Of a stretch of 11,753 bases of DNA, positions 1 to 11,753 are shown in pieces. Both the position numbers and the translations under genes were made by a program. Within the stretch, counting starts at the first letter, position 1, and each line of letters begins with the position of its first letter. Under the pieces are notes generated by a model. That model was not told the origin of the DNA. It made no database searches and saw only the letters and a program-made list of their open reading frames with translations. This DNA is from a virus (taxonomy: Duplodnaviria; Heunggongvirae; Uroviricota; Caudoviricetes), in the IMG/VR virus record IMGVR_UViG_2531839531_000006; one strand, written 5' to 3'.

Positions 1-1284
1 TTACTTCTTCGCCTCTGCAACCACTTTACTACCCACGCCGCGGTTATTGTATTCCCACATGCGGTTGTAGTTAGTGTCATTCAGATTGCGCTGTATTTCG
101 TCGTTATCATCTACGCTGCCGGTATTACCCGCAAACGGACGATTAGAGATCACCGCATCGGCCCACGGTTTAGCCGTGTTAAAACCTTCGTTGATGGCGC
201 TATCACGGATCACCACCTGACCGTTGGTATTGGCATCAACATCCAGCGAGCGGCCCAGTTGCGCCACACCATCACCGAAAGCATTGAAACGGCTGTTTAC
301 GGCGAGGAAACCGTAGTAAATGTTGGACAGCGTAGCCGGTGCAAACACATACGCTTCTTGCTGAGTACGTGAGTTCACCACGCGGAATTCGGTGTTATCG
401 AACACCACTGCGCCGCGACCAGAAACGATATCCACATCCCCTTCAATGTAGCTGTTGGTCACCAGCGTACGCGGCTGATGGTTGGTTTCCAGACGGTTCT
501 GCACACCGCTGTTGGTGACAAAGAAGGTGTTCTGACGACCGAGAATGTTAACGTTGTTAATCTGTACCAGGTCACCATCAGTACGCAGTGCCACCGCCGG
601 ATGGTTACCTGCATCTACGCTATCGCCCAGCGTGTTTTCGATGGTCAGATTTTGCAGTTGCAGGCCATTGTTTTGTGACCAGAAGACCGCAGAGCAGAGA
701 ACACCGATACTGTCGCTGCGTTTGCTCTGGCAGCTATCGTACATATACCACGCTGGTTTACCTGGCATATATTTGCCGCGCGGGTTGACGTCGTGACGCC
801 AGTCGGCAGGGCTCATGCCACCATCAAGGGAAAGCCCAATCTTCACATCAATCGGTTTTTCACCTGTACCGTACAGAGTAATTCCACCCGGAGCGGCAGG
901 GACATATACCGTTCCCTGATACTCACCAGGCATCACGGCAATATACTGGCGCTTGTTGGTACGCTTGATAATTGCCGCATCTACCGCCGCCTGAATCGTG
1001 GTATGCGTTACACCTTGAGTGCCCGCCGGGCCGACAACAAAGTCAGGTTGCGCAGGCAGGGTAATCGGGGAAGGATTCCACGCTGCAGCACCTGGTGTCA
1101 GGGATGCAAAATAGTGTTGAGCATCGAAATTCTGCGCTTCTTTTGCCGACAGAATCGGGCGAGAAGAGGTACCAGGCGCGGTTTGATCAGAAGGACGTTG
1201 ATCGGGCGGGGTTGAGCTACAGGCGGTCAGCGTCACGCCAAAAGCCAATGCCAGCGCCAGACGGGAAACTGAAAATGTGTTCAC
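1..1284 (-). CDS. ybhC: Outer-membrane lipoprotein YbhC (pectinesterase-fold putative acyl-CoA thioesterase); host gene flanking lambda attB
   Basis: Complete 427-aa ORF with stop at 1-3. N-terminus MNTFSVSRLALALAFGVTLTAC is a lipoprotein signal peptide with an LTAC lipobox. Sequence matches my recollection of E. coli YbhC, the gene next to lambda attB. Confidence 0.85.
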   Translation of the reverse strand: MNTFSVSRLALALAFGVTLTACSSTPPDQRPSDQTAPGTSSRPILSAKEAQNFDAQHYFASLTPGAAAWNPSPITLPAQPDFVVGPAGTQGVTHTTIQAAVDAAIIKRTNKRQYIAVMPGEYQGTVYVPAAPGGITLYGTGEKPIDVKIGLSLDGGMSPADWRHDVNPRGKYMPGKPAWYMYDSCQSKRSDSIGVLCSAVFWSQNNGLQLQNLTIENTLGDSVDAGNHPAVALRTDGDLVQINNVNILGRQNTFFVTNSGVQNRLETNHQPRTLVTNSYIEGDVDIVSGRGAVVFDNTEFRVVNSRTQQEAYVFAPATLSNIYYGFLAVNSRFNAFGDGVAQLGRSLDVDANTNGQVVIRDSAINEGFNTAKPWADAVISNRPFAGNTGSVDDNDEIQRNLNDTNYNRMWEYNNRGVGSKVVAEAKK

Positions 1285-1330
1285 AGGTTGCTCCGGGCTA
1301 TGAAATAGAAAAATGAATCCGTTGAAGCCT

Positions 1331-1345
1331 GCTTTTTTATACTAA
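1331..1345. other. attL core (15-bp lambda att common core GCTTTTTTATACTAA)
   Basis: Exact 15-bp core at 1331..1345. Host-type sequence (B arm) lies to the left and lambda P'-arm sequence to the right, which is the BOP' arrangement of attL. Confidence 0.9.
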
Positions 1346-1370
1346 GTTGGCATTATAAAAAAGCATTGCT

Positions 1371-1418
1371 TATCAATTTGTTGCAACGAACAGGTCACTA
1401 TCAGTCAAAATAAAATCA
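1371..1418. promoter_or_regulatory. attL P' arm: IHF H' site and Int arm-type binding sites
   Basis: TATCAATTTGTTG at 1371..1383 fits the IHF consensus (WATCAAnnnnTTR). CAGGTCACTAT (1391..1401) and CAGTCAAAAT (1402..1411) fit Int arm-type sites, located between the core and the end of int as in lambda. Confidence 0.7.
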
Positions 1419-2489
1419 TTATTTGATTTCAATTTTGTCCCACTCCCTGCCTCTGTCATCACGATACTGTGATGCCATGGTGTCCGACTTATGCCCGAGA
1501 AGATGTTGAGCAAACTTATCGCTTATCTGCTTCTCATAGAGTCTTGCAGACAAACTGCGCAACTCGTGAAAGGTAGGCGGATCCCCTTCGAAGGAAAGAC
1601 CTGATGCTTTTCGTGCGCGCATAAAATACCTTGATACTGTGCCGGATGAAAGCGGTTCACGACGAGTAGATGCAATTATGGTTTCTCCGCCAAGAATCTC
1701 TTTGCATTTATCAAGTGTTTCCTTCATTGATATCCCGAGAGCATCAACATGCAATGTTGTTGGGATGGCAATTTTTACGCCTGTTTTGCTTTGCTCGACA
1801 TAAAGATATCCATCTACGATATCAGACCACTTCATTTCGCATAAATCACCAACTCGTTGCCCGGTAACAACAGCCAGTTCCATTGCAAGTCTGAGCCAAC
1901 ATGGTGATGATTCTGCTGCTTGATAAATTTTCAGGTATTCGTCAGCCGTAAGTCTTGATCTCCTTACCTCTGATTTTGCTGCGCGAGTGGCAGCGACAGG
2001 GTTTGTTGTTATATGGCCTTCAGCTATTGCCTCTCGGAATGCATCGCTCAGTGTTGATCTGATTAACTTGGCTGACGCCGCCTTGCCCTCGTCTATGTAT
2101 CCATTGAGCATTGCCGCAATTTCTTTTGTGGTGATGTCTTCAAGTGGAGCATCAGGCAGACCCCTCCTTATTGCTTTAATTTTGCTCATGTAATTTATGA
2201 GTGTCTTCTGCTTGATTCCTCTGCTGGCCAGGATTTTTTCGTAGCGATCAAGCCATGAATGTAACGTAACGGAATTATCACTGTTGATTCTCGCTGTCAG
2301 AGGCTTGTGTTTGTGTCCTGAAAATAACTCAATGTTGGCCTGTATGGCTTCAGTGATTGCGATTCGCCTGTCTCTGCCTAATCCAAACTCTTTACCCGTC
2401 CTTGGGTCCCTGTAGCAGTAATATCCATTGTTTCTTATATAAAGGTTAGGGGGTAAATCTCGGCGCTCATGACTTCGCCTTCTTCCCAT
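1419..2489 (-). CDS. int: Lambda-type integrase (tyrosine recombinase)
   Basis: 356-aa ORF beginning MGRRRSHERRDLPPNLYIRNNGYYCYRDPRTGKEFGLG, matching lambda Int in length and sequence as I recall it. It lies beside attL and overlaps xis by 23 nt as in lambda. Confidence 0.95.
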   Translation of the reverse strand: MGRRRSHERRDLPPNLYIRNNGYYCYRDPRTGKEFGLGRDRRIAITEAIQANIELFSGHKHKPLTARINSDNSVTLHSWLDRYEKILASRGIKQKTLINYMSKIKAIRRGLPDAPLEDITTKEIAAMLNGYIDEGKAASAKLIRSTLSDAFREAIAEGHITTNPVAATRAAKSEVRRSRLTADEYLKIYQAAESSPCWLRLAMELAVVTGQRVGDLCEMKWSDIVDGYLYVEQSKTGVKIAIPTTLHVDALGISMKETLDKCKEILGGETIIASTRREPLSSGTVSRYFMRARKASGLSFEGDPPTFHELRSLSARLYEKQISDKFAQHLLGHKSDTMASQYRDDRGREWDKIEIK

Positions 2490-2685
2490 TTCTGATCCTC
2501 TTCAAAAGGCTACCTGTTACTGGTCGATTTAAGTCAACCTTTACCGCTGATTCGTGGAACAGATACTCTCTTCCATCCTTAACCGGAGGAGGGAATATCC
2601 TGCACTCGCGTACCCATCGACGAACTGTTTCAAGGCTTCTTGGGCGTCGCTGGCGTGCGTTCCACTCCTGAAGTGTCAAGTACAT
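2467..2685 (-). CDS. xis: Excisionase
   Basis: 72-aa ORF MYLTLQEWNARQRRPRSLETVRRWVRECRIFPPPVKDGREYLFHESAVKVDLNRPVTGSLLKRIRNGKKAKS, matching lambda Xis in length and sequence as recalled. It overlaps the int start. Confidence 0.95.
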   Translation of the reverse strand: MYLTLQEWNARQRRPRSLETVRRWVRECRIFPPPVKDGREYLFHESAVKVDLNRPVTGSLLKRIRNGKKAKS

Positions 2686-2710
2686 CGCAAAGTCTCCGCA
2701 ATTACACGCA

Positions 2711-2733
2711 AGAAAAAACCGCCATCAGGCGGC
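2711..2733 (-). terminator. Putative rho-independent terminator (minus-strand sense) just upstream of xis
   Basis: Plus-strand CCGCC-ATCA-GGCGG (2719..2732) gives a 5-bp GC stem with a 4-nt loop; on the minus strand it is followed by TTTTTTCT (plus-strand A-run 2711..2718). Confidence 0.4.
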
Positions 2734-2783
2734 TTGGTGTTCTTTCAGTTCTTCAATTCGAATATTGGTTACGTCTGCATGTG

Positions 2784-2984
2784 CTATCTGCGCCCACAGC
2801 ATCCAGTGGTCATAGCAGTCGCTGATGTTCTCGGCTTCGATAACTCTGTTGAATGGTTCTCCATTCCATTCACCTGTGACTCGGAAGTGCATTTATCATC
2901 TCCATAAAACAAAACCCGCCGTAGCGAGTTCAGATAAAAGAAATCCTCGTCAGTGCGAGGATGCTGTTCATTGCTGCTATACAC
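2784..2984 (-). CDS. Hypothetical small protein (66 codons, GTG start); possibly non-coding
   Basis: ORF in the six-frame track. The start codon is GTG (plus strand CAC at 2982..2984) with only a weak GAGAG upstream. No recognisable motif. It sits in the non-lambda cassette. Confidence 0.2.
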   Translation of the reverse strand: MYSSNEQHPRTDEDFFYLNSLRRVLFYGDDKCTSESQVNGMENHSTELSKPRTSATAMTTGCCGRR

Positions 2985-3134
2985 TTTTTTGCTCTCAACG
3001 TAAGCGGTAGCCCATTCTGTTGGGTTGGTGCAGTTGCTTTTAGGAAATGCTATTTACCCCTTAAATGTCGGCTGAAAGAGCTAAAATCCATGCAAAAAAT
3101 TTACGCAATTTTGTGTATTATTGTGCAGTAAGTA

Positions 3135-3737
3135 ATGAGCTATTTTCTGCGCAAAAAATGGATGGTAAATTTGTCCGGGTCAGGAAAAATTTTATGGGCG
3201 CTAAACATGAAAAAAGATTCGTATCCTTATTTGATTTGCATGACAGTTTCAGGGCTGATCTTTATTTTCCTTTTCTTCTGGTGGCGGGCAGATATCTACA
3301 GGGTCACGTTTCTTAATCAGAGTATATCCCACTATTACATTCTGTTTAGCATGGGAATAGCTTTTCTGTTATCTCTGTTTTGGGTTAAGAAGGGGATAGT
3401 AAAACAAAGAGGCTGGAAGAGTCTGTCAGCATACCTTAAGGTTTATGCAGGGATGTGCATATTTGCTGGATTTTTTCTGATTATACCCCTTACGACACTA
3501 ACTTATTTTTTGCCTGGAGAGACATCGTCTTATGTTGCACCGTATCGGTATACTTCCGGTAGTTCAAAAAGTTGTTCTGGAGCTGAGGTGGATGACCCCG
3601 ATCTACATGAGAATATTCGCATTTGCTATCCGTATGGCAATTATGAGTACGATAATATTATCTATGTTGAAAAGAAAATTAATATATTAGGTGCGGTAGT
3701 GACATATGCACAGACCGCGCGTGATGATACTGAATGA
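3135..3737 (+). CDS. Hypothetical integral membrane protein (3 predicted TM helices plus a ~70-aa C-terminal soluble domain); cargo gene in the ea-region slot
   Basis: 200-codon ORF on the strand opposite the early operon, in A+T-rich DNA where chance ORFs of this length are unlikely. Three hydrophobic segments: LICMTVSGLIFIFLFFWW, YYILFSMGIAFLLSLFWV, VYAGMCIFAGFFLIIPLTTLTYFL. Start is ambiguous: in-frame ATGs at 3135, 3162 and 3207, none with a strong Shine-Dalgarno. A hairpin terminator follows the stop. Confidence 0.65.
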   Translation: MSYFLRKKWMVNLSGSGKILWALNMKKDSYPYLICMTVSGLIFIFLFFWWRADIYRVTFLNQSISHYYILFSMGIAFLLSLFWVKKGIVKQRGWKSLSAYLKVYAGMCIFAGFFLIIPLTTLTYFLPGETSSYVAPYRYTSGSSKSCSGAEVDDPDLHENIRICYPYGNYEYDNIIYVEKKINILGAVVTYAQTARDDTE

Positions 3738-3771
3738 TATAGTATATAGCGGGCAAGTTTTAGTTAATTTA

Positions 3772-3809
3772 TCGAGGTAATATAATTTACCTCGACTCGT
3801 TTGTTCTGG
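3772..3809 (+). terminator. Putative rho-independent terminator for the plus-strand membrane-protein gene
   Basis: Perfect 9-bp inverted repeat TCGAGGTAA (3772..3780) / TTACCTCGA (3787..3795) with loop TATAAT, followed by T-rich CTCGTTTGTTCT, about 35 nt after the stop at 3737. Confidence 0.45.
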
Positions 3810-3947
3810 TATTAATATTTCGCTTTACGACCGATTTTTATCTGATGATATCATGCGGTTTTCATATACTGACTTACTGTCTTTTCTCCGTTAGCGATTT
3901 TCTCCTGCTCAGCGATGATTTTATCTTTGGCTTCTAGTTAATTTCGC

Positions 3948-4169
3948 TCACTTCGAACCTCTCTGTTTACTGATAAGCTCCAGATCCTCCTGGCAACTTG
4001 CACAAGTCCGACAACCCTGAACGACCAGGCGTCTTCGTTCATCTATCGGATCGCCACACTCACAACAATGAGTGGCAGATATAGCCTGGTGGTTCAGGCG
4101 GCGCATTTTTATTGCTGTGTTGCGCTGTAATTCTTCAATTTCTGATGCTGAATCAATGATGTCTGCCAT
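3948..4169 (-). CDS. TraR/DksA-family C4 zinc-finger protein (lambda orf73-like RNA polymerase-binding regulator)
   Basis: 73-aa ORF with C35-x2-C38-x17-C56-x2-C59 spacing, the TraR/DksA zinc-finger pattern. Size and position are typical of phage TraR homologues upstream of the recombination module. Confidence 0.8.
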   Translation of the reverse strand: MADIIDSASEIEELQRNTAIKMRRLNHQAISATHCCECGDPIDERRRLVVQGCRTCASCQEDLELISKQRGSK

Positions 4170-4218
4170 CTTCCATTAATCCCTGAATTGTTGGTTAATA
4201 CGCTTGAGGGTGAATGCG

Positions 4219-4245
4219 AATAATAAAAAAGGAGCCTGTAGCTCC
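4219..4245 (-). terminator. Putative rho-independent terminator (minus-strand sense) upstream of the TraR-like gene
   Basis: GGAGC-CTGTA-GCTCC hairpin (4231..4245); on the minus strand it is followed by TTTTTTATTATT (plus-strand A-rich 4219..4230). Confidence 0.4.
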
Positions 4246-4267
4246 CTGATGATTTTGCTTTTCATGT

Positions 4268-4579
4268 TCATCGTTCCTTAAAGACGCCGTTTAACATGCC
4301 GATTGCCAGGCTTAAATGAGTCGGTGTGAATCCCATCAGCGTTACCGTTTCGCGGTGCTTCTTCAGTACGCTACGGCAAATGTCATCGACGTTTTTATCC
4401 GGAAACTGCTGTCTGGCTTTTTTGATTTCAGAATTAGCCTGACGGGCAATGCTGCGAAGGGCGTTTTCCTGCTGAGGTGTCATTGAACAAGTCCCATGTC
4501 GGCAAGCATAAGCACACAGAATATGAAGCCCGCTGCCAGAAAAATGCATTCCGTGGTTGTCATACCTGGTCTCTCTCAT
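4268..4579 (-). CDS. Hypothetical protein (lambda orf61 position; 103 codons from the first ATG, or 71 codons from the internal ATG at 4483)
   Basis: ORF whose start overlaps the stop of the upstream ORF by 20 nt. By collinearity the lambda orf61 annotation would end near 4394, but this frame continues to 4268. No motif recognised. Confidence 0.45.
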   Translation of the reverse strand: MRETRYDNHGMHFSGSGLHILCAYACRHGTCSMTPQQENALRSIARQANSEIKKARQQFPDKNVDDICRSVLKKHRETVTLMGFTPTHLSLAIGMLNGVFKER

Positions 4580-4751
4580 CTGCTTCTGCTTTCGCCACCA
4601 TCATTTCCAGCTTTTGTGAAAGGGATGCGGCTAACGTATGAAATTCTTCGTCTGTTTCTACTGGTATTGGCACAAACCTGACTCCAATTTGAGCGAGGCT
4701 ATGTGCCATCTCGATACTCGTTCTTAACTCAACGGGAGATGCTTTGTGCAT
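4560..4751 (-). CDS. Lambda orf63-like hypothetical protein
   Basis: 63-codon ORF at exactly the position and length of lambda orf63, using the offset fixed by exo/bet/gam. Confidence 0.65.
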   Translation of the reverse strand: MHKASPVELRTSIEMAHSLAQIGVRFVPIPVETDEEFHTLAASLSQKLEMMVAKAEADERDQV

Positions 4752-4906
4752 ACAGCTCCCCGTTTATTATTTATCTCCTCAGCCAGCCGCTGTGCTTTCA
4801 GGGGATTTCGGATAACAGAAAGGCCGGGAAATACCCAGCCTCGCTTCGTAACGGAGTAGACGAAAGTGATCGTGCCTACGCGGATATTATCGTGAGGATG
4901 TTTCAT
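4724..4906 (-). CDS. Lambda orf60a-like hypothetical protein
   Basis: 60 codons from [10 protein letters not shown] (the track ORF begins two codons earlier, at 4912). The stop overlaps the next ORF and the start overlaps the exo stop by 4 nt, as in lambda. Confidence 0.6.
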
Positions 4907-5583
4907 CGCCATTGCTCCCCAAATACAAAACCAATTTCAGCCAGTGCCTCGTCCATTTTTTCGATGAACTCCGGCACCATCTCGTCAAAACTCGCTATAT
5001 ACTTTTCATTCCGCTCAATCACGACATAATGCAGGCCTTCACGCTTCATACGCGGGTCATAGTTGGCAAAGTACCAGGCATCTTTTCGCGTCACCCACAT
5101 GCTGTACTGCACCTGGGCCATGTAAGCCGACTTTATGGCCTCGAAACCACCGAGCCGGAATTTCATGAAATCCCGGGAGGTAAACGGGCATTTCAGCTCA
5201 AGGCCATTGCCGTCACTGCATAAACCATCGGGAGAGCAGGCGGTGCGCATACTTTCGTCGCGATAGATGATCGGGGATTCAATAACATTTACGCCGGAAG
5301 TGAACTCAAACAGGGTTCTGGCGTCGTTCTCGTACTGTTTTCCCCAGGCCAGCGCTTTAGCGTTAACTTCCGGAGCCACACCGGTGCAAACCTCAGCTAG
5401 CAGGGTGTGGAAGTAGGACATTTTCATGTCAGGCCACTTCTTTCCTGATCGGGGCTTTGCTATCACGTTGTGAACTTCTGAAGCGGTGATGACGCCGAGC
5501 CGTAATTTGTGCCATGCATCATCCCCCTGTTCGACAGCTCTCACGTCGATCCCGGTACGCTGCAGGATAATGTCCGGTGTCAT
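4903..5583 (-). CDS. exo: Lambda exonuclease (Red-alpha, 5'-3' dsDNA exonuclease)
   Basis: 226-aa [43 protein letters not shown], matching lambda Exo in length and sequence as recalled. 4-nt overlap with bet. Confidence 0.95.
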
Positions 5584-6365
5584 GCTGCCACCTTCTGCTC
5601 AGTGGCTTTCTGTTTCAGGAATCCAAGAGCTTTCACTGCTTCGGCCTGTGTCAGTTCTGACGATGCGCGAATGTCGCGGCGAAATATCTGGGAACAGAGC
5701 GGCAATAAGTCGTCATCCCATGTTTTATCCAGGGCGATCAGCAGAGTGTTAATCTCCTGCATGGTTTCATCGTTAACCGGAGTGATGTCGCGTTCCGGCT
5801 GACGTTCTGCAGTGTATGCAGTATTTTCGACAATGCGCTCGGCTTCATCCTTGTCATAGATACCAGCAAATCCGAAGGCCAGACGGGCACACTGAATCAT
5901 GGCTTTATGCCGTAACATCCGTTTGGGATGCGACTGCCACGGTCCGGTGATTTCTCTGCCTTCGCGGGTTTTGAATGGTTCGCGGCGGCATTCATCCATC
6001 CACTCGGTAACGCAGATCGGATGATTGCGGTCTTTGCGGTAAATCCGGCATGTGCAGGATTCGTTGTCCTGTTCAAAGTCCATGCCGTCAAACTGCTGGT
6101 TTTCGTTGATGATGCGGGACCAGCCATCAACGCCCACCACCGGAACGATGCCGTTCTGCTTATCAGGGAAGGCGTAAATTTCTTTCGTCCACGGATTAAG
6201 ACCGTACTGGTTGGCGACGATCAGCAATGCGATGAACTGCGCATCGCTGGCATCACCTTTAAATGCCGTCTGGCGAAGAGTGGTGATCAGTTCCTGTGGG
6301 TCGACAGAATCCATGCCGACTCGTTCAGCCAGCTTCCCAGCCAGCGTTGCGAGTGCTGTACTCAT
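5580..6365 (-). CDS. bet: Red-beta single-strand annealing protein
   Basis: 261-aa [69 protein letters not shown], matching lambda Bet in length and sequence as recalled. Confidence 0.95.
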
Positions 6366-6370
6366 CCGTT

Positions 6371-6787
6371 TTATACCTCTGAATCAATATCAACCTGGTG
6401 GTGAGCAATGGTTTCAACCATGTACCGGATGTGTTCTGCCATGCGCTCCTGAAACTCAACATCGTCATCAAACGCACGGGTAATGGCTTTTTTGCTGGCC
6501 CCGTGGCGTTGCAAATGATCGATGCATAGCGATTCAAACAGGTGCTGGGGCAGGCCTTTTTCCATGTCGTCTGCCAGTTCTGCCTCTTTCTCTTCTCGGG
6601 CGATCTGCTGGTAGTGACGCGCCCAGCTCTGAGCCTCAAGACGATCCTGAATGTAATAAGCGTTCATGGCTGAACTCCTGAAATAGCTGTGAAAATATCG
6701 CCCGCGAAATGCCAGGCTGATTAGGAAAACAGGAAAGGGGGTTAGTGAATGCTTTTGCTTGATCTCAGTTTCAGCATTAATATCCAT
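6371..6787 (-). CDS. gam: Gam, RecBCD inhibitor (long form; internal start gives GamS)
   Basis: 138-aa [64 protein letters not shown], matching lambda Gam in length and sequence as recalled. Confidence 0.95.
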
Positions 6788-6885
6788 TTTTTATAAGCGT
6801 CGACGGCTTCACGAAACATCTTTTCATCGCCAATAAAAGTGGCGATAGTGAATTTAGTCTGGATAGCCATAAGTGTTTGATCCAT
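6742..6885 (-). CDS. kil: Kil (FtsZ-targeting host-killing protein)
   Basis: 47 codons from [47 protein letters not shown], with ATG at 6883..6885. Overlaps the gam start by 46 nt and cIII by 32 nt as in lambda. The 89-codon track ORF is an upstream extension. Confidence 0.85.
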
Positions 6886-7018
6886 TCTTTGGGACTCCTG
6901 GCTGATTAAGTATGTCGATAAGGCGTTTCCATCCGTCACGTAATTTACGGGTGATTCGTTCAAGTAAAGATTCGGAAGGGCAGCCAGCAACAGGCCACCC
7001 TGCAATGGCATATTGCAT
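6854..7018 (-). CDS. cIII: CIII (FtsH inhibitor that stabilises CII)
   Basis: 54 codons from [54 protein letters not shown], with ATG at 7016..7018. The 78-codon track ORF is an upstream extension. Confidence 0.85.
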   Translation of the reverse strand: MQYAIAGWPVAGCPSESLLERITRKLRDGWKRLIDILNQPGVPKNGSNTYGYPD

Positions 7019-7090
7019 GGTGTGCTCCTTATTTATACATAACGAAAAACGCCTCGAGTGAAGCGTTATTGGTATGCGGTAAAACCGCAC

Positions 7091-7459
7091 TCAGGCGGCC
7101 TTGATAGTCATATCATCTGAATCAAATATTCCTGATGTATCGATATCGGTAATTCTTATTCCTTCACTACCATCCATTGGAGGCCATCCTTCCTGACCAT
7201 TTCCATCATCCCAGTCGAACTCACAAACAACACCATATGCATTTAAGTCTTTCGAAAGTGCTATAAGCAGAGCATGTTGCGCCAGCATGATTAATACAGC
7301 ATTTAATAAAGAGCCGTGTTTATTGAGTCGGTATTCAGAGTCTGACCAGAAATTATTAATCTGGTGAAGTTTTTCCTCTGTCATTACGTCATGGTCGATT
7401 TCAATTTCTATTGATGCTTTCCAGTCGTAATCAATGATGTATTTTTTGATGTTTGACAT
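7091..7459 (-). CDS. ea10: Ea10 early protein
   Basis: 122-aa ORF MSNIKKYIIDYDWKASIEIEIDHDVMTEEKLHQINNFW, at the lambda ea10 position and length. Confidence 0.85.
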   Translation of the reverse strand: MSNIKKYIIDYDWKASIEIEIDHDVMTEEKLHQINNFWSDSEYRLNKHGSLLNAVLIMLAQHALLIALSKDLNAYGVVCEFDWDDGNGQEGWPPMDGSEGIRITDIDTSGIFDSDDMTIKAA

Positions 7460-7479
7460 CTGTTCATATCCTCACAGAT

Positions 7480-7505
7480 AAAAAATCGCCCTCACACTGG
7501 AGGGC
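7480..7505 (-). terminator. Rho-independent terminator (minus-strand sense) between ral and ea10, in the lambda tL2 region
   Basis: GCCCTC-ACACTG-GAGGGC hairpin (7488..7505), followed on the minus strand by TTTTTT (plus-strand A-run 7480..7485). Confidence 0.5.
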
Positions 7506-7567
7506 AAAGAAGATTTCCAATAATCAGAACAAGTCGACTCCTGTTTAGTTACGAGCGACATTGCTCC

Positions 7568-7595
7568 GTGTATTCACTCGTTGGAATGAATACAC
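7568..7595. repeat. Perfect 9-bp inverted repeat GTGTATTCA-N10-TGAATACAC
   Basis: Read directly from the sequence, in the ea10-ral intergenic region. No flanking T-run on the minus strand, so it is not a typical terminator. Confidence 0.5.
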
Positions 7596-7662
7596 AGTGC
7601 AGTGTTTATTCTGTTATTTATGCAAAAAATAAAGGCCACTATCAGGCAGCTTTGTTGTTCTG

Positions 7663-7842
7663 TTAACCAAGTTCTCTGGCAATCATTGCCGTCGTTCGTA
7701 TTGCCCATTTATCGACATATTTCCCATCTTCTATTACAGGAAACATTTCTTCAGGCTTAACCATGCATTCCGATTGCAGCTTGCATCCATTGCATCGCTT
7801 GAATTGTCCACACCATTGATTCTTATCAATAGTCGTAGTCAT
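7663..7842 (-). CDS. ral: Ral (restriction alleviation), C-terminally truncated: 59 codons ending at an in-frame TAA; the same frame continues KQNNKAA to a TGA at 7642, the lambda-length 66 codons
   Basis: Translates MTTTIDKNQWCGQFKRCNGCKLQSECMVKPEEMFPVIEDGKYVDKWAIRTTAMIARELG then TAA (plus-strand TTA at 7663..7665). ATG is at 7840..7842. Not in the supplied track because it is under 60 codons. Confidence 0.7.
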   Translation of the reverse strand: MTTTIDKNQWCGQFKRCNGCKLQSECMVKPEEMFPVIEDGKYVDKWAIRTTAMIARELG

Positions 7843-7912
7843 ACGGATAGTCCTGGTACTGTTCCATTACATCCTGCGGATGCTCTTCGAACTCTTCAAA
7901 TTCTTCTTCCAT
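7826..7912 (-). CDS. Lambda orf28-like small acidic protein
   Basis: 28 codons MEEEFEEFEEHPQDVMEQYQDYPYDYDY; its stop overlaps the ral start, at the lambda orf28 position. Confidence 0.55.
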   Translation of the reverse strand: MEEEFEEFEEHPQDVMEQYQDYPYDYDY

Positions 7913-8036
7913 ATATCACCTTAAATAGTGGATTGCGGTAGTAAAGATTGTGCCTGTCTTTTAACCACATCAGGCTCGGTGGTTCTCGTGTACCCCTACA
8001 GCGAGAAATCGGATAAACTATTACAACCCCTACAGT

Positions 8037-8591
8037 TTGATGAGTATAGAAATGGATCCACTCGTTATTCTCGGACGAGTGTTCAGTAATGAACCTCTGG
8101 AGAGAACCATGTATATGATCGTTATCTGGGTTGGACTTCTGCTTTTAAGCCCAGATAACTGGCCTGAATATGTTAATGAGAGAATCGGTATTCCTCATGT
8201 GTGGCATGTTTTCGTCTTTGCTCTTGCATTTTCGCTAGCAATTAATGTGCATCGATTATCAGCTATTGCCAGCGCCAGATATAAGCGATTTAAGCTAAGA
8301 AAACGCATTAAGATGCAAAACGATAAAGTGCGATCGGTAATTCAAAACCTTACAGAAGAGCAATCTATGGTTTTGTGCGCAGCCCTTAATGAAGGCAGGA
8401 AGTATGTGGTTACATCAAAACAATTCCCATACATTAGTGAGTTGATTGAGCTTGGTGTGTTGAACAAAACTTTTTCCCGATGGAACGGGAAGCATATATT
8501 ATTCCCTATTGAGGATATTTACTGGACTGAATTAGTTGCCAGCTATGATCCATATAATATTGAGATAAAGCCAAGGCCAATATCTAAGTAA
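8037..8591 (+). CDS. sieB: SieB superinfection exclusion protein (membrane protein; an internal in-frame start would give Esc)
   Basis: 184-aa ORF of exactly lambda sieB length and position, convergent with and abutting the N stop. Hydrophobic segments MYMIVIWVGLLLLSP and VFVFALAFSLAI. Confidence 0.9.
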   Translation: MMSIEMDPLVILGRVFSNEPLERTMYMIVIWVGLLLLSPDNWPEYVNERIGIPHVWHVFVFALAFSLAINVHRLSAIASARYKRFKLRKRIKMQNDKVRSVIQNLTEEQSMVLCAALNEGRKYVVTSKQFPYISELIELGVLNKTFSRWNGKHILFPIEDIYWTELVASYDPYNIEIKPRPISK

Positions 8592-8915
8592 CTAGGTAAG
8601 AGGAATCGATTTTCCCTTAATTTTCTGGCGTCCACTGCATGTTATGCCGCGTTCGCCAGGCTTGCTGTACCATGTGCGCTGATTCTTGCGCTCAATACGT
8701 TGCAGGTTGCTTTCAATCTGTTCGTGGTATTCAGCCAGCACTGTAAGGTCTATCGGATTCAGTGCGCTTTCTACTCGTGATTTCGGTTTGCGATTCAGCG
8801 AGAGAATAGGGCGGTTAACTGGTTTTGCGCTTACCCCAACCAACAGGGGATTTGCTACTTTCCATTGAGCCTGTTTCTCTGCGCGACGTTCGCGGCGGCG
8901 TGTTTGTGCATCCAT
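8592..8915 (-). CDS. N: N transcription antitermination protein
   Basis: 107 codons from MDAQTRRRERRAEKQAQWKVANPLLVGVSAKPVNRPILSLNRKPKSRVESALNPIDLTVLAEYH, including the arginine-rich RNA-binding motif. Shine-Dalgarno AGGAGA precedes the ATG at 8913..8915. The 137-codon track ORF is an upstream extension. Confidence 0.9.
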   Translation of the reverse strand: MDAQTRRRERRAEKQAQWKVANPLLVGVSAKPVNRPILSLNRKPKSRVESALNPIDLTVLAEYHEQIESNLQRIERKNQRTWYSKPGERGITCSGRQKIKGKSIPLT

Positions 8916-9025
8916 CTGGATTCTCCTGTCAGTTAGCTTTGAGTAACGCGCCGTGATGCTTATCCCCACGGTTGCTGTCTTGCAGCTGCATTTCGCGCTA
9001 CTCAAAGCTTTCTGCTTTGAATGCT

Positions 9026-9056
9026 GCCCTTCTTCAGGGCTAAATTTTTAAGAGCC
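9026..9056 (-). promoter_or_regulatory. nutL (boxB hairpin plus boxA)
   Basis: Minus-strand boxB GCCCTGAAGAAGGGC (9026..9040) is identical to lambda boxB as I recall it. boxA-like GGCTCTTAA (9048..9056) lies 7 nt upstream on the transcript. Confidence 0.8.
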
Positions 9057-9096
9057 TCACCTTCAATGGTGGTTAGTGCGTCCTGCTGACGGGCTA

Positions 9097-9125
9097 AGTA
9101 TCACCGCTAGTGGTATTTGTGTCAA
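9097..9125 (-). promoter_or_regulatory. pL promoter (-35 TTGACA, 17-bp spacer, -10 GATACT)
   Basis: Minus-strand TTGACA (9120..9125) and GATACT (9097..9102) with a 17-nt spacer, the lambda pL hexamers, upstream of nutL and N. Confidence 0.8.
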
Positions 9126-9159
9126 CACCGCTAGAGATATTTTATCACCGCAAATGGTT
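9099..9159. promoter_or_regulatory. OL1-OL2-OL3 CI/Cro operators
   Basis: Three 17-bp sites with TATCACCGC-type half-sites: TATCACCGCTAGTGGTA (9099..9115), CAACACCGCTAGAGATA (9123..9139), TATCACCGCAAATGGTT (9143..9159). They overlap pL as in lambda. Confidence 0.75.
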
Positions 9160-9345
9160 ATCTGTATGTTTTTTATATGGATTTATTTTTTCGAGTGAGT
9201 GTATTGCCTCGGCGATGTAAGGAGAGATCAGAATTGCGTTGTTTAGTGAGTGTAACCGGCTCATTTAAACCGTCTGGTCTGTTTCCTCCGGCTCTACAAA
9301 AATAATGTCCATCATTTTTGAACTGCGCCCCAGATCTTGGACAAC

Positions 9346-10209
9346 TTATGCAGCCTGACTCAATCGATATTGTACCGGGCTAAGACCGCCAAGTTTTTCC
9401 TTTATCCTCAATTGATTATAATAGTTTATGTAATCAATGATGTCTCGCTTTAAGTCCTCCACATTTTTATATTCATTGAGGTAATAACATTCTGATTTCA
9501 ATGTTCCAAAAAAGCTCTCTATAACTGCATTATCAAGACAATTTCCCCGGCGAGACATACTCTGGACTATACCGCTATCCTTTAACCATCGTTGCCACCG
9601 GGACATCTGATATTGCCAACCTTGATCGCTGTGCAGTATGGGGTGTTCATCTTTCGACAGCTGTTTCAGCGCATCCGTAAGCATAGTCTGCACCATTGAA
9701 GGTTGAGGGCGAGTGGCGAGGTTATAGGAAATTATTTCTCCATTATAAAGATCCATGACGGGCGACAAATACAGCTTCTTGCCATTCACTTTAAATTCAG
9801 TGACATCTGTAACCCACTTCTCGTTGGGGCGTTTTGCATCAAAATTGCGTTTCAGGAGATTATCGCAAATTCGTCCTTGTTCTCCTTTATATGAACGGTA
9901 TTTTTTAACGCGGATCAGGCTGCTAATACCCAGTTCCTTCATCAGTTTTCTGACGGTTTTACCATTAAGTAAAACCCCCTCGTTACGACATGCCAGCCTG
10001 ATGCGTCTGTAACCATAGCGGCCTTTGTGCTGGTGATAAATTTTCAGCACAAGCGCTCTGGCAGACTGATACCGGTCAGGAGCAGCAAGCCGTCTGACAT
10101 GATAGTAAAATGTACTCCGGGGCAGCCCGGAAACAATTAACAATCGGGACAATGGCCATTCCTGCCTTAGTTCATTCACAATGCTCACTTTTTCCTGAAC
10201 GTTGAGCAT
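9346..10209 (-). CDS. IS3-family transposase OrfB (DDE catalytic domain; expressed as OrfAB fusion by -1 frameshift)
   Basis: 287-aa ORF containing HSDQGWQY, RKGNCLDNAV and YYN motifs typical of IS3/IS150 OrfB. Overlaps orfA by 25 nt in the -1 frame. Confidence 0.85.
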   Translation of the reverse strand: MLNVQEKVSIVNELRQEWPLSRLLIVSGLPRSTFYYHVRRLAAPDRYQSARALVLKIYHQHKGRYGYRRIRLACRNEGVLLNGKTVRKLMKELGISSLIRVKKYRSYKGEQGRICDNLLKRNFDAKRPNEKWVTDVTEFKVNGKKLYLSPVMDLYNGEIISYNLATRPQPSMVQTMLTDALKQLSKDEHPILHSDQGWQYQMSRWQRWLKDSGIVQSMSRRGNCLDNAVIESFFGTLKSECYYLNEYKNVEDLKRDIIDYINYYNQLRIKEKLGGLSPVQYRLSQAA

Positions 10210-10691
10210 GTTTTCTGCTGAACCAAGGCTTTCAGCTTTTTTAAGTAGGCATTCTCGACCCTGAGTTGTTCAAGTTCTTCTCTCTCATCTTTGGTTAATG
10301 TTGGTAGTGGTGGTGCTGAAATGGCGCTTTTATCCGGCACAGGAATACTCTTTTTATTTTTTCGAATGAAAGCATCTTCGCCATATTTTCTATATTTTTC
10401 AAGCCAGTTGCATACAGTACCAAAGGCTGGTATTCCGTGTTTTACCGCTACTTCACGAACAGAAAAACAGTCATCCACGACTTCTTTTACTACTGTGAGT
10501 TTTAACTCAGCAGAATAGCGTCCTTTTTTACCCGTAAGTATGCTTATCCCATGTTCCCGATAGGCATAAGCCCATTTTCTTACTGTGCAGGGACTGATAC
10601 CGTACATCCTTGCTACAGATTTCAGACTCAACTCTCCCTCCAGGTACTTTTCTGATACTACCTTTTTGAACTCCAATGAAAACTTTTCCAT
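10185..10691 (-). CDS. IS3-family transposase OrfA (HTH plus leucine zipper)
   Basis: 168-aa ORF with an N-terminal helix-turn-helix (SVARMYGISPCTVRKWAYAY) and a C-terminal coiled coil (EELEQLRVENAYLKKLKALV). Confidence 0.85.
   Translation of the reverse strand: MEKFSLEFKKVVSEKYLEGELSLKSVARMYGISPCTVRKWAYAYREHGISILTGKKGRYSAELKLTVVKEVVDDCFSVREVAVKHGIPAFGTVCNWLEKYRKYGEDAFIRKNKKSIPVPDKSAISAPPLPTLTKDEREELEQLRVENAYLKKLKALVQQKTCSTFRKK
10236..10242 (-). other. Programmed -1 ribosomal frameshift heptamer A AAA AAG (orfA to orfB)
   Basis: Plus-strand CTTTTTT at 10236..10242 is AAAAAAG on the coding strand, in the orfA/orfB overlap, as in other IS3-family elements. Confidence 0.7.
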
Positions 10692-10758
10692 GCATCCTCA
10701 GTTTTTGGTCTGGTGTCTAACCTTTGGGGCGCAGTTCATTTTTAATGGACACTATCGT

Positions 10759-11406
10759 ATGAAACACCGGACCTGGATCACTGAAGCTTTACGTCTTCAC
10801 TTTGAAGAACATTTACCCCGGGTTGTGGCCGGGCGTCGCCTGGGTGTACCAAAATCAACAGTTTGTAGTATGTTCGTGCGCTTTCGGAGAGCTGGCCTTT
10901 CGTGGCCTTTGCCCGCAGGCATGTCGGAGCAGGAACTTGATGCCTGCCTTTACGGACAATTTTCCACGGTACCAGTCGTACGTCCTGAAAGCACCGTTAT
11001 ATCCGAAGCCCCCGTGGTAAAAAAACGTCCCCGGCGGCCCAACTTCCCTTATGAGTTTAAAATCGCCTTAGTGGAGCAGTCACTGCAGCCCGGAGCCTGT
11101 GTGGCGCAGATCGCCCGGGAAAACGGAATCAACGATAACCTGCTCTTCAACTGGCGCCATCAATACCGGAAAGGTGGCCTGCTGCCTTCCGGAAAAAATA
11201 TGCCGGCACTGCTTCCCGTGACGTTAACGCCGGAGCCGGATAATAAAATCCCGGCCCCCGCACAGGAACCAGAGCAGATAAATACACCGTCCGACAGTCT
11301 GTGTTGTGAGCTGGTTCTGCCGGCCGGAACTCTCAGGCTTAAAGGTAAACTGACGCCGGCGTTATTACAGACACTTATCCGCGAAATAAAAGGGAGCAGC
11401 CACTGA
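10759..11406 (+). CDS. IS66-family Orf1 (TnpA-like accessory protein); start codon uncertain
   Basis: C-terminal part (RPRRPNFPYEFKIALVEQSLQPGACVAQIARENGINDNLLFNWRHQYRKGG ... CELVLPAGTLRLKGKLTPALLQTLIREIKG) is typical of IS66 Orf1. First in-frame ATG outside the IS3 element is at 10759 (MKHRTW...) and lacks a good Shine-Dalgarno. The 273-codon track ORF begins inside the IS3 inverted repeat and is an artefact. Confidence 0.5.
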   Translation: MKHRTWITEALRLHFEEHLPRVVAGRRLGVPKSTVCSMFVRFRRAGLSWPLPAGMSEQELDACLYGQFSTVPVVRPESTVISEAPVVKKRPRRPNFPYEFKIALVEQSLQPGACVAQIARENGINDNLLFNWRHQYRKGGLLPSGKNMPALLPVTLTPEPDNKIPAPAQEPEQINTPSDSLCCELVLPAGTLRLKGKLTPALLQTLIREIKGSSH

Positions 11407-11753
11407 TGATATCTCTCCCTGCAGGTTCGCGTATCTGGCTGGTTGCAGGTATCACCGATATGCGAAATGGCTTTAACGGCCTGGCATCAAAAGTTCAGAA
11501 CGTCCTGAAGGATGACCCGTTCTCCGGACACCTGTTCATCTTCCGCGGACGCCGGGGTGACCAGATAAAAGTGTTGTGGGCTGACAGTGACGGACTGTGC
11601 CTCTTCACCAAACGCCTGGAGCGGGGCCGCTTCGTCTGGCCAGTCACCCGTGACGGCAAGGTGCACCTTACTCCGGCTCAGTTATCCATGCTTCTTGAAG
11701 GTATCAACTGGAAGCACCCGAAACGAACGGAACGCGCTGGAATCCGCATATAA
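11406..11753 (+). CDS. IS66-family TnpB (Orf2)
   Basis: 115-aa ORF MISLPAGSRIWLVAGITDMRNGFNGLASKVQNVLKDDPFSGHLFIFRGRRGDQIKVLWAD, matching IS66-family TnpB as I recall it. Its ATG overlaps the orf1 TGA (TGATG). Stop is at the window end. Confidence 0.85.
   Translation: MISLPAGSRIWLVAGITDMRNGFNGLASKVQNVLKDDPFSGHLFIFRGRRGDQIKVLWADSDGLCLFTKRLERGRFVWPVTRDGKVHLTPAQLSMLLEGINWKHPKRTERAGIRI

What the first reader, a model, noticed from the sequence alone, without database searches (positions are those of the whole stretch)
9251..10760. IS3-family element nested in the left end of an IS66-family element, upstream of its orf1
The 1420-bp IS3-family element has clear inverted repeats and TTT on both flanks. 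Removing it joins ...CCATCATTTT to TAATGGACACTATCGTATGAAACAC..., placing the IS66 orf1 start about 20 nt after the junction. The insertion therefore separates IS66 orf1 and tnpB from whatever promoter lies in the IS66 left end, probably silencing it. The IS66 left boundary near 9251 is my inference.
Basis: partly seen in the sequence, partly recalled or inferred. Interest (0 to 1): 0.4.

Follow-up and report, generated by a model that had tools for sequence, protein, structure and literature searches.

The report
Insertion sequence nested in ISCro1 hotspot
One jumping gene (a 1420-bp IS3-family element) sits inside the left end of another (the IS66-family element ISCro1) within a lambda-like prophage; this is ordinary, except that the same small palindrome in ISCro1 is hit by this element again and again in E. 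coli.

Summary
Window 9319-10738 is an intact 1420-bp IS3-family element on the minus strand. It has 14/14 identical tips, orfA/orfB, an A6G frameshift site and an rve domain. It lies 67 bp inside the left end of ISCro1 (IS66 family), whose tip is at 9252, exactly where lambda-like prophage homology stops.

Corrections:
- The target duplication is 4 bp (TTTT), not TTT.
- RefSeq starts tnpA of intact ISCro1 at an ATG 30 nt further upstream (225 aa). By that annotation the insertion falls inside the first codons of tnpA.

The main new point is that this is a recurrent, site-specific event, not a chance nesting.
- The element sits at the exact centre of the palindrome TGTCCAT-cattttta-ATGGACA.
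- In complete E. coli genomes the same junction occurs in both orientations (75 and 52 records), which is about half of the 233 records that carry this IS.
- 44 genomes carry un-nested ISCro1 at the very pap site where APEC O2-211 has the nested form, so there it entered in situ.
- The same IS also hits similar GTGTCCA...TGGACAC palindromes in ISEc8, a third IS66 element, cvrA-dadX and ydcZ.

Silencing of ISCro1 is plausible but untested. Overall this is ordinary biology, with a modestly interesting target specificity.

The parts
9244..9251 (.). Predicted 8-bp target duplication of ISCro1 in the prophage (TAGTGAGT), left copy only; the right copy is outside the window
   Evidence: The uninterrupted phage mEp332 reads ...GTTTAGTGAGT|TGTATC. 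Other ISCro1 copies have 8-bp duplications. This is a prediction and was not verified for this copy.
9252..9318 (+). ISCro1 (IS66 family) left end, nt 1-67: left inverted-repeat tip GTAACCGGCTC and the left half of the sub-terminal palindrome
   Evidence: Matches to ISCro1 in unrelated plasmids and chromosomes start at 9251/9252. The joined sequence without the IS3 is 100% identical to intact ISCro1. It is the only GTAASCGRCTC match in the window.
9305..9307 (+). ATG used by RefSeq as the tnpA start (225-aa form) in intact ISCro1; here it is cut off from the rest of tnpA by the IS3
   Evidence: In locus L219 tnpA is annotated as 678 nt, starting 30 nt upstream of the 215-aa ATG. 225-aa cluster members are listed.
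9306..9312 (+). Left arm of the target palindrome (TGTCCAT)
   Evidence: Palindrome TGTCCAT-CATTTTTA-ATGGACA in intact ISCro1 nt 55-76. The DNA hairpin is -5.3 kcal/mol.
9315..9318 (.). Target-site duplication of the IS3 element, copy 1 (TTTT)
   Evidence: Intact ISCro1 has five T; the window has 4 + 5.
9319..10738 (-). Intact IS3-family (IS150-like) insertion sequence, 1420 bp
   Evidence: RefSeq label: 'IS3 family transposase, programmed frameshift'.
9319..9343 (-). Right inverted repeat of the IS3 element (TGAACTGCGCCCCAGATCTTGGACA), holding the TTGGACA box
   Evidence: The TTGGAC box at nt 19-24 is conserved in IS150-group relatives.
9346..10209 (-). orfB (287 aa; catalytic DDE/rve domain)
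   Evidence: Pfam rve, rve_2, rve_3 and HTH_21. NCBIfam transpos_IS3, 342.7 bits.
10185..10691 (-). orfA (168 aa; two tandem helix-turn-helix repeats)
   Evidence: Pfam HTH_28 and HTH_Tnp_1. The exact protein occurs on more than 1000 contigs.
10236..10242 (-). A AAA AAG slippery heptamer for the -1 frameshift that gives the 448-aa OrfAB
10714..10738 (-). Left inverted repeat of the IS3 element (TGAACTGCGCCCCAAAGGTTAGACA)
10739..10742 (.). Target-site duplication of the IS3 element, copy 2 (TTTT)
10745..10752 (+). Right arm of the target palindrome (ATGGACAC); it contains the only TGGACAC in the 11.7-kb window, 7 nt from the IS3 end
10759..11406 (+). ISCro1 tnpA, 215-aa form (accessory HTH protein)
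   Evidence: Pfam HTH_Tnp_1. NCBIfam IS66_access_TnpA, 296 bits. RefSeq tnpA in L001 and L002.
11406..11753 (+). ISCro1 tnpB (115 aa); the window ends at its stop codon, so tnpC and the right inverted repeat are missing
   Evidence: Pfam TnpB_IS66, 4.7e-40.

Best explanation
A lambda-like prophage at att-lambda acquired a copy of ISCro1 (IS66 family) just to the right of OL. A 1420-bp IS3-family element of the IS150 type then inserted into that resident ISCro1.

The insertion is site-specific. The element entered the exact centre of a sub-terminal palindrome, TGTCCAT-cattttta-ATGGACA (ISCro1 nt 55-76), and duplicated the four central T. This IS lineage repeatedly chooses palindromes, or half-sites, carrying (G)TGGACAC 6-8 nt from the insertion point.

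That box resembles the conserved TTGGAC/TTAGAC box inside its own inverted repeats. The likely mechanism (inferred) is that the DNA-binding part of its transposase, or OrfA, binds the target boxes and directs strand transfer to the midpoint. IS66-family elements carry such a palindrome just upstream of tnpA, so they are this element's main landing pads in E. coli.

Consequence for this ISCro1 copy (inferred, not shown):
- The palindrome is split.
- The upstream ATG and any left-end promoter are moved 1.4 kb away from tnpA-tnpB-tnpC.
- In the window's orientation nothing promoter-like reads into tnpA.
The copy is therefore probably not expressed in cis, although its ends are intact and it could still be moved in trans.
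For: Anatomy.

Identity of the host element and its boundary.

Recurrence:
- Junction ISCro1-left|IS3 right end is present in 75 records / 68 genomes.
- Junction ISCro1-left|IS3 left end, the opposite orientation, is present in 52 records / 45 genomes.
- 233 records / 195 genomes hold a near-full copy of the IS.
- Diverged ISCro1 variants are also hit, in both orientations (L209, L213, L218).

In-situ entry: 44 genomes carry un-nested ISCro1 at the identical pap-operon junction that is nested in APEC O2-211.

Other targets share the same motif:
- cvrA-dadX: ATAGTGTCCAT-n7-ATGGACACTAT, both orientations, 3-bp duplication.
- ydcZ: GTGTCCA-n11-TGGACAC, both orientations.
- ISEc8 left end, 24 nt upstream of tnpA, both orientations.
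- A third IS66-family element, 19 nt upstream of tnpA.
- Half-sites in yejO and in an integrase gene (N7-TGGACAC on the right-end side).
- A 73%-identical relative in a GTCCAC..GTGGAC palindrome.

Specificity: TGGACAC occurs only once in the window, 7 nt from the IS end.

The box in the IS's own repeats is conserved across the IS150 group.

No promoter-like site reads into tnpA, and a terminator-like hairpin lies at 10713-10732.
Against: - No expression or transposition data exist; the ISCro1 promoter is unmapped, and the consensus scan found none in the left end.
- Record counts are inflated by clonal relatedness (many ETEC and APEC plasmids), so the number of independent events is well below 127.
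- The two orientations at one site could in principle arise by inversion across the 14-bp identical tips rather than by separate insertions. Against that are the different duplication lengths, the diverged host copies and the several unrelated sites.
- Binding of the transposase or OrfA to the target box is inferred from sequence resemblance only. The box-to-cut distance is 6-8 nt in targets but 19 nt in the IS ends.
- For the window's own copy, no un-nested counterpart at the same prophage site was found.
Confidence: 0.8

Rival explanations
1. The nested pair is a single composite unit. The IS3 entered one ISCro1 once, and the 4.1-kb ISCro1::IS3 has since spread by ISCro1 transposition, so ISCro1 is not silenced.
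For: Composites in the window's orientation that are 99.9-100% identical lie in different contexts, each with its own 8-bp duplication (TTTCATCT in L001, TTTATTTC in L002). The window's own prophage site has no un-nested counterpart in the collections searched.
Against: The pap-site copy has 44 un-nested counterparts at the identical junction, so there the IS3 arrived after ISCro1. Both orientations are common. Diverged ISCro1 variants, ISEc8 and a third IS66 element are hit at the equivalent place. The same IS hits look-alike chromosomal palindromes.
Confidence: 0.12
2. The nesting is chance. An IS with weak target preference landed in an abundant multicopy element, and the coincidence of sites reflects clonal sampling.
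For: ISCro1 is very abundant (2106 records, up to 18 places per genome), and many hits come from related ETEC and APEC plasmids.
Against: The same 4-bp position is used in both orientations. About half of the records with this IS show the junction. At least six unrelated target sequences share (G)TGGACAC at 6-8 nt, which has a chance probability of about 2e-4 per site. The 20 contexts returned by the two exact-protein look-ups are mostly at ISCro1, cvrA-dadX or ydcZ.
Confidence: 0.03
3. The insertion activates ISCro1 rather than silencing it, either through an outward promoter or by destroying a repressor-binding palindrome.
For: The palindrome just upstream of tnpA looks like an operator. UniRef names this protein 'Repressor TnpA', and it weakly matches 'IS2 repressor TnpA'. 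In the opposite orientation, read-through from orfAB would run into tnpA.
Against: In the window's orientation orfAB points away from tnpA. No promoter-like site on the + strand reads into tnpA, and a terminator-like hairpin followed by T's lies at 10713-10732. IS3-family outward -35 boxes are at the right end (prior knowledge), which here faces the prophage and not tnpA.
Confidence: 0.05

Closest known systems
IS1397 and ISKpn1 (IS3 family), which insert into the loop of palindromic units (REP/BIME)
   Same: They belong to the same family and have the same two-ORF frameshift layout. They insert at the centre of a short palindrome with a 3-4-bp duplication. Specificity is attributed to the transposase (PMC1525189, citing Wilde et al. 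2003). Pantoea and Pseudomonas relatives with the same inverted-repeat tip sit in REP-like sequences.
   Different: The target here is not a REP/PU. It is an AT-rich-spaced GTGTCCA...TGGACAC palindrome, found mainly in IS66-family left ends and at two or three chromosomal sites. I could not obtain the IS1397 sequence for comparison, so the relationship between the two elements is untested.
ISCro1 (IS66 family; 2699 bp; tnpA-tnpB-tnpC; 8-bp duplication)
   Same: The host element's left 67 bp, tnpA and tnpB are 100% identical to RefSeq copies whose transposase is labelled 'IS66-like element ISCro1 family'.
   Different: This copy is interrupted 67 bp from its tip, and only its first 1082 bp (excluding the IS3) lie in the window.
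IS150 (type member of the IS150 group of the IS3 family)
   Same: The inverted-repeat architecture is similar: TG.ACTGC.CCC...TTGGAC (IS150-like ends in L133-L149). The transposase is about 58% identical. It has the A6G frameshift and a 3-4-bp duplication.
   Different: It is a different element. IS150 is not known (from memory) for strict palindrome targeting. No ISfinder name could be assigned with the tools available.
IS30 / IS911 targeting of sequences that resemble their own inverted repeats
   Same: The idea that the transposase's end-binding domain also picks the target; here the target boxes resemble the sub-terminal TTGGACA/TTAGACA box.
   Different: This resemblance is recalled from prior knowledge and was not tested here. 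The geometry differs: the box lies 6-8 nt from the cut in targets and 19 nt from the tip in the IS.

Membership tests
IS3 family | Two overlapping ORFs (HTH OrfA; DDE/rve OrfB) joined by a -1 programmed frameshift | tested here: met
   Pfam HTH_28/HTH_Tnp_1 and rve. A AAA AAG at 10242-10236 gives a 448-aa fusion. NCBIfam transpos_IS3, 342.7 bits against a cut-off of 160.
IS3 family | Terminal inverted repeats ending 5'-TG...CA-3', length 1.2-1.55 kb, 3-4-bp target duplication | tested here: met
   TGAACTGCGCCCCA tips, 1420 bp, TTTT duplication shown by comparison with intact ISCro1. Duplications of 3-5 bp at other sites.
IS150 group of the IS3 family / a named ISfinder element | Nucleotide or transposase identity to a curated ISfinder entry | not testable with these tools
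   ISfinder is not available. RefSeq gives only 'IS3 family transposase'. About 58% amino-acid identity to IS150-like copies.
IS66 family (ISCro1) | tnpA, tnpB (PF05717) and tnpC (DDE_Tnp_IS66) in that order | tested here: met
   tnpA and tnpB are in the window. tnpC lies outside the window but follows directly in identical copies L001, L002 and L219, where it is labelled ISCro1 family.
IS66 family (ISCro1) | Inverted repeats starting GTAA and an 8-bp target duplication | tested here: inconclusive
   The left tip GTAACCGGCTC is at 9252. The right tip and 8-bp duplications were seen only in other copies. For this copy the right end is outside the window; the predicted duplication is TAGTGAGT.
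Palindrome-targeting IS3-family elements (IS1397/ISKpn1 type) | Repeated independent insertion at the centre of a specific palindrome, in either orientation | tested here: met
   ISCro1, cvrA-dadX, ydcZ and ISEc8 sites are each occupied in both orientations. In-situ entry at the pap site.
Palindrome-targeting IS3-family elements (IS1397/ISKpn1 type) | The target is a REP / palindromic unit | tested here: not met
   The targets are GTGTCCA...TGGACAC palindromes, not GC-rich REP units.
Composite transposon | Two IS copies flanking cargo and moving as one | tested here: not met
   This is a single IS inside another IS, with no cargo. The pap site shows sequential insertion.

The most novel reading that the evidence does not exclude
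This IS150-type lineage may be a specialised 'parasite of a parasite'. Its transposase or OrfA, whose HTH is homologous to that of IS66 TnpA (PF01527; BLASTP E 4e-6), would recognise the conserved GTCCA...TGGAC palindrome that IS66-family elements keep just upstream of tnpA. That palindrome is probably the TnpA operator; it is kept by compensatory changes in one element. The IS would thus home into IS66 elements as safe havens and knock them out.
Probability: 0.35. Interest if true: 0.45.

Novelty: new member of a known kind. Interest (0 to 1): 0.3.

Why it matters
For annotating this window, the result is simply a correct call of two nested insertion sequences in a prophage.

The wider point is modest but useful.
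- It defines a sharp target motif for a common, unnamed E. coli IS3-family element: a GTGTCCA-n8-11-TGGACAC palindrome, with insertion at its centre.
- It shows that IS66-family left ends, which are multicopy on virulence and resistance plasmids and in prophages, are that element's main landing sites.
- It points to a conserved palindrome upstream of IS66 tnpA that may be a regulatory site.
- Copies of the IS sitting in different targets have visibly recombined with each other, giving hybrid flanks. The association therefore also produces deletions and rearrangements in plasmids and chromosomes.

Tried and rejected
- Source genome: I searched for the exact prophage|ISCro1 junction in viral contigs and in complete E. 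coli genomes. Nothing was found, so the ISCro1 right end and its duplication could not be checked for this copy.
It gave no extra copies of this particular IS. Because the pattern itself contained TTRGACA, I did not use it as evidence that the box is conserved; provides that instead.
- Metagenome scan with OrfB: only one identical copy and two close relatives; the rest were about 55-58% identical.
- Naming the IS3 element: cluster names, RefSeq labels and literature searches gave no specific name. The IS1397 papers (PMC95333, PMC169884) are not held.
- Promoter search: the consensus scan found nothing in the ISCro1 left end. Only a relaxed 9/12 match was found, which is too weak to build on.
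- Rejected: composite-unit spread as the main explanation.
- Rejected: an IS66 left repeat after 10738.
- Rejected: 9252-9318 being phage DNA.
Full report
**1. What is in the window**

Positions 9319-10738 are a complete 1420-bp insertion sequence on the minus strand.
- Its ends are TGAACTGCGCCCCA and the exact complement, 14/14. The similarity continues to about 25 nt and includes a TTGGACA / TTAGACA box.
- orfA (10691->10185, 168 aa) carries helix-turn-helix domains. orfB (10209->9346, 287 aa) carries HTH_21 and the rve integrase core, and scores 342.7 bits on NCBIfam transpos_IS3.
- An A AAA AAG heptamer at 10242-10236 gives a 448-aa OrfAB after a -1 shift. RefSeq annotates identical copies as 'IS3 family transposase, programmed frameshift'.
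- The element is 100% identical to copies elsewhere and is present in 195 of 5426 complete E. coli genomes. It looks intact and active.

**2. The host element**

The sequence on both sides of the IS3 is ISCro1, an IS66-family element.
- Joining 9252-9318 to 10743 onward gives a sequence 100% identical over 373 nt to intact ISCro1 in more than 1800 records.
- Matches to ISCro1 in unrelated plasmids and chromosomes begin at window 9251/9252.
- GTAACCGGCTC at 9252 is the only IS66-type tip in the window.
- Homology to lambda and phage mEp332 (int ... N, PL/OL) runs up to 9251-9254 and stops. mEp332 reads ...GTTTAGTGAGT|TGTATC uninterrupted.
- The window starts in ybhC, so this is a lambda-like prophage at att-lambda. 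ISCro1 was inserted about 90 nt to the right of OL3.
- An intact ISCro1 is 2699 bp with 8-bp duplications. In the window only tnpA (10759-11406) and tnpB (11406-11753) are present, so the predicted duplication TAGTGAGT cannot be checked.

**3.

- Intact ISCro1 has five T at the site. The window has four before the IS and five after, so the duplication is TTTT (4 bp).
- RefSeq starts tnpA of intact ISCro1 at an ATG 30 nt further upstream, giving 225 aa. That ATG (window 9305) is now separated from the gene, and nested copies are annotated with the 215-aa start.
- The NCBIfam TnpA profile begins at residue 3 of the 215-aa form, which mildly favours the shorter start.
- Either way, the insertion removes whatever lies upstream of tnpA.

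**4. The insertion site is a hotspot**

The IS3 sits at the exact centre of the palindrome TGTCCAT-CATTTTTA-ATGGACA (ISCro1 nt 55-76).

Junction queries against complete E. coli genomes gave:

| Query | Records | Genomes |
|---|---|---|
| ISCro1-left joined to the IS3 right end (the window's orientation) | 75 | 68 |
| ISCro1-left joined to the IS3 left end (opposite orientation) | 52 | 45 |
| Near-full copy of the IS3 | 233 | 195 |

- Diverged ISCro1 variants are hit in both orientations as well.
- In APEC O2-211 the nested ISCro1 lies in the pap operon with its own 8-bp duplication. 44 other genomes have an un-nested ISCro1 at the identical junction. There the IS3 entered a resident ISCro1, so nothing requires the composite to move.
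- In a sample of ISCro1 copies from viral contigs, 49 were intact at the site and 1 was nested.

**5. The same IS uses very few other sites, and they look alike**

Two exact-protein look-ups returned 20 contexts. They were almost all at ISCro1, the cvrA-dadX intergenic region or ydcZ.

| Target | Sequence at the site | Orientations | Duplication |
|---|---|---|---|
| cvrA-dadX | ATAGTGTCCAT-ccttttA-ATGGACACTAT (28/31 identical to the ISCro1 site) | both | 3 bp |
| ydcZ | GTGTCCA-n11-TGGACAC | both | 4-5 bp |
| ISEc8 left end | AAGTGGTGTCCACCaaa\|taa\|gtagTGGGAACC, 24 nt before tnpA | both | TAA (3 bp) |
| Third IS66-family element (decayed 94% relative of the IS) | 19 nt before tnpA, between GTGTCCAC and TGGACGC | one seen | not evident |
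| yejO | half-site, N7-TGGACAC next to the IS right end | one seen | GCAG (4 bp) |
| Integrase gene | half-site, N7-TGGACAC next to the IS right end | one seen | TAAA (4 bp) |
| Site of a 73%-identical relative (chromosomal, not an IS66 element) | GTCCAC...GTGGAC palindrome | one seen | not determined |

TGGACAC occurs once in the whole window, 7 nt from the IS end.

**6. Likely mechanism (inferred)**

- The IS's own inverted repeats carry TTGGACA / TTAGACA at nt 19-25. In relatives selected by protein similarity alone, TTGGAC at that position is almost invariant.
- The target boxes therefore resemble the sub-terminal box. In IS3-family elements that region is the transposase-binding part of the end (prior knowledge from IS911, not tested here).
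- I propose that OrfAB or OrfA binds the two boxes and that strand transfer occurs midway between them. Precedents for palindrome-centre targeting in this family are IS1397 and ISKpn1 (PMC1525189), although their targets are REP units.
- IS66-family elements of several kinds keep a GTCCA...TGGAC palindrome just upstream of tnpA. One of them has compensatory changes in both arms.
- IS66 TnpA shares the PF01527 helix-turn-helix with the IS3 OrfA. The palindrome may therefore be a TnpA operator. This is speculation.

**7. Effect on ISCro1**

- The consensus scan finds no promoter in the ISCro1 left end. The best relaxed match, TCTACA-18-TTTAAT (nt 42-71), straddles the insertion point.
- In the window's orientation, orfAB points away from tnpA, no promoter-like site reads into tnpA, and a terminator-like hairpin with a T tail lies at 10713-10732.
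- Loss of cis expression is therefore plausible but unproven. The ISCro1 left tip is intact, and the right tip is intact in sister copies, so mobilisation in trans is not excluded.

**8. Novelty**

- Both elements are known kinds, and the nested arrangement is present, unremarked, in many RefSeq genomes.
- I found no paper describing this IS3/IS66 association or the target motif. ISfinder could not be consulted.
- I rate it a new member of the known class of palindrome-targeting IS3-family elements, of low to moderate interest.

Noticed in passing
window 1-9251: The window starts in ybhC (1-1284, minus strand; NCBIfam PRK10531). It continues with the left arm of a lambda-like prophage (int at 1419-2489, then exo/bet/gam, N) and the PL promoter and OL operators at 9097-9160. 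The prophage is therefore at att-lambda, and it is 98.7% identical to phage mEp332 over 1330-9254.
   Followed up: partly
L247, L306, L308, L309, L311, L314 (upstream of tnpA); window 9306-9312 and 10745-10752: Several different IS66-family elements keep a palindrome (direct repeats in one case) built on GTCCA/TGGAC a few nt upstream of the tnpA start. One element has ATAGAGTCCA-n12-TGGACTCTAT, a change on both arms that preserves the palindrome. This may be a conserved regulatory site of the family.
   Followed up: partly
L210, L215, L222, L224 (cvrA-dadX intergenic region): A chromosomal palindrome, AATAGTGTCCATCCTTTTAATGGACACTATC, is 28/31 identical to the ISCro1 sub-terminal palindrome and is also occupied by the same IS in both orientations. 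Why a core-genome intergenic site so closely resembles an IS66 left-end motif is unexplained.
   Followed up: no
L005, L129, L225, L226: Some copies of the IS3 element have flanks from two different targets: ISEc8 left end on one side and ISCro1 left end on the other, or cvrA on one side and ISCro1 tnpA on the other. They have no matching duplication. This is the signature of recombination between copies, giving deletions or rearrangements.
   Followed up: partly
L009-L128: The 14-nt tip TGAACTGCGCCCCA is shared by IS150-type elements in Lysinibacillus, Pseudomonas, Pantoea, Streptococcus and Bacteroidales genomes. The Pantoea and Pseudomonas copies abut REP-like sequences (…GCTCGCTCCTAC…).
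   Followed up: no
window 10188-10691 (minus) and 10759-11403 (plus): OrfA of the IS3 element has two tandem HTH repeats. Each is similar to residues 92-140 of ISCro1 TnpA (BLASTP E 4e-6 and 1e-4). TnpA also weakly matches 'IS2 repressor TnpA' and the N-terminus of the IS3 transposase profile.
   Followed up: partly
window 10585-11406 (plus): The tnpA reading frame stays open for 58 codons upstream into the IS3 end, so it is listed as a 273-aa GTG ORF. This is most likely chance and not a fusion protein.
   Followed up: no
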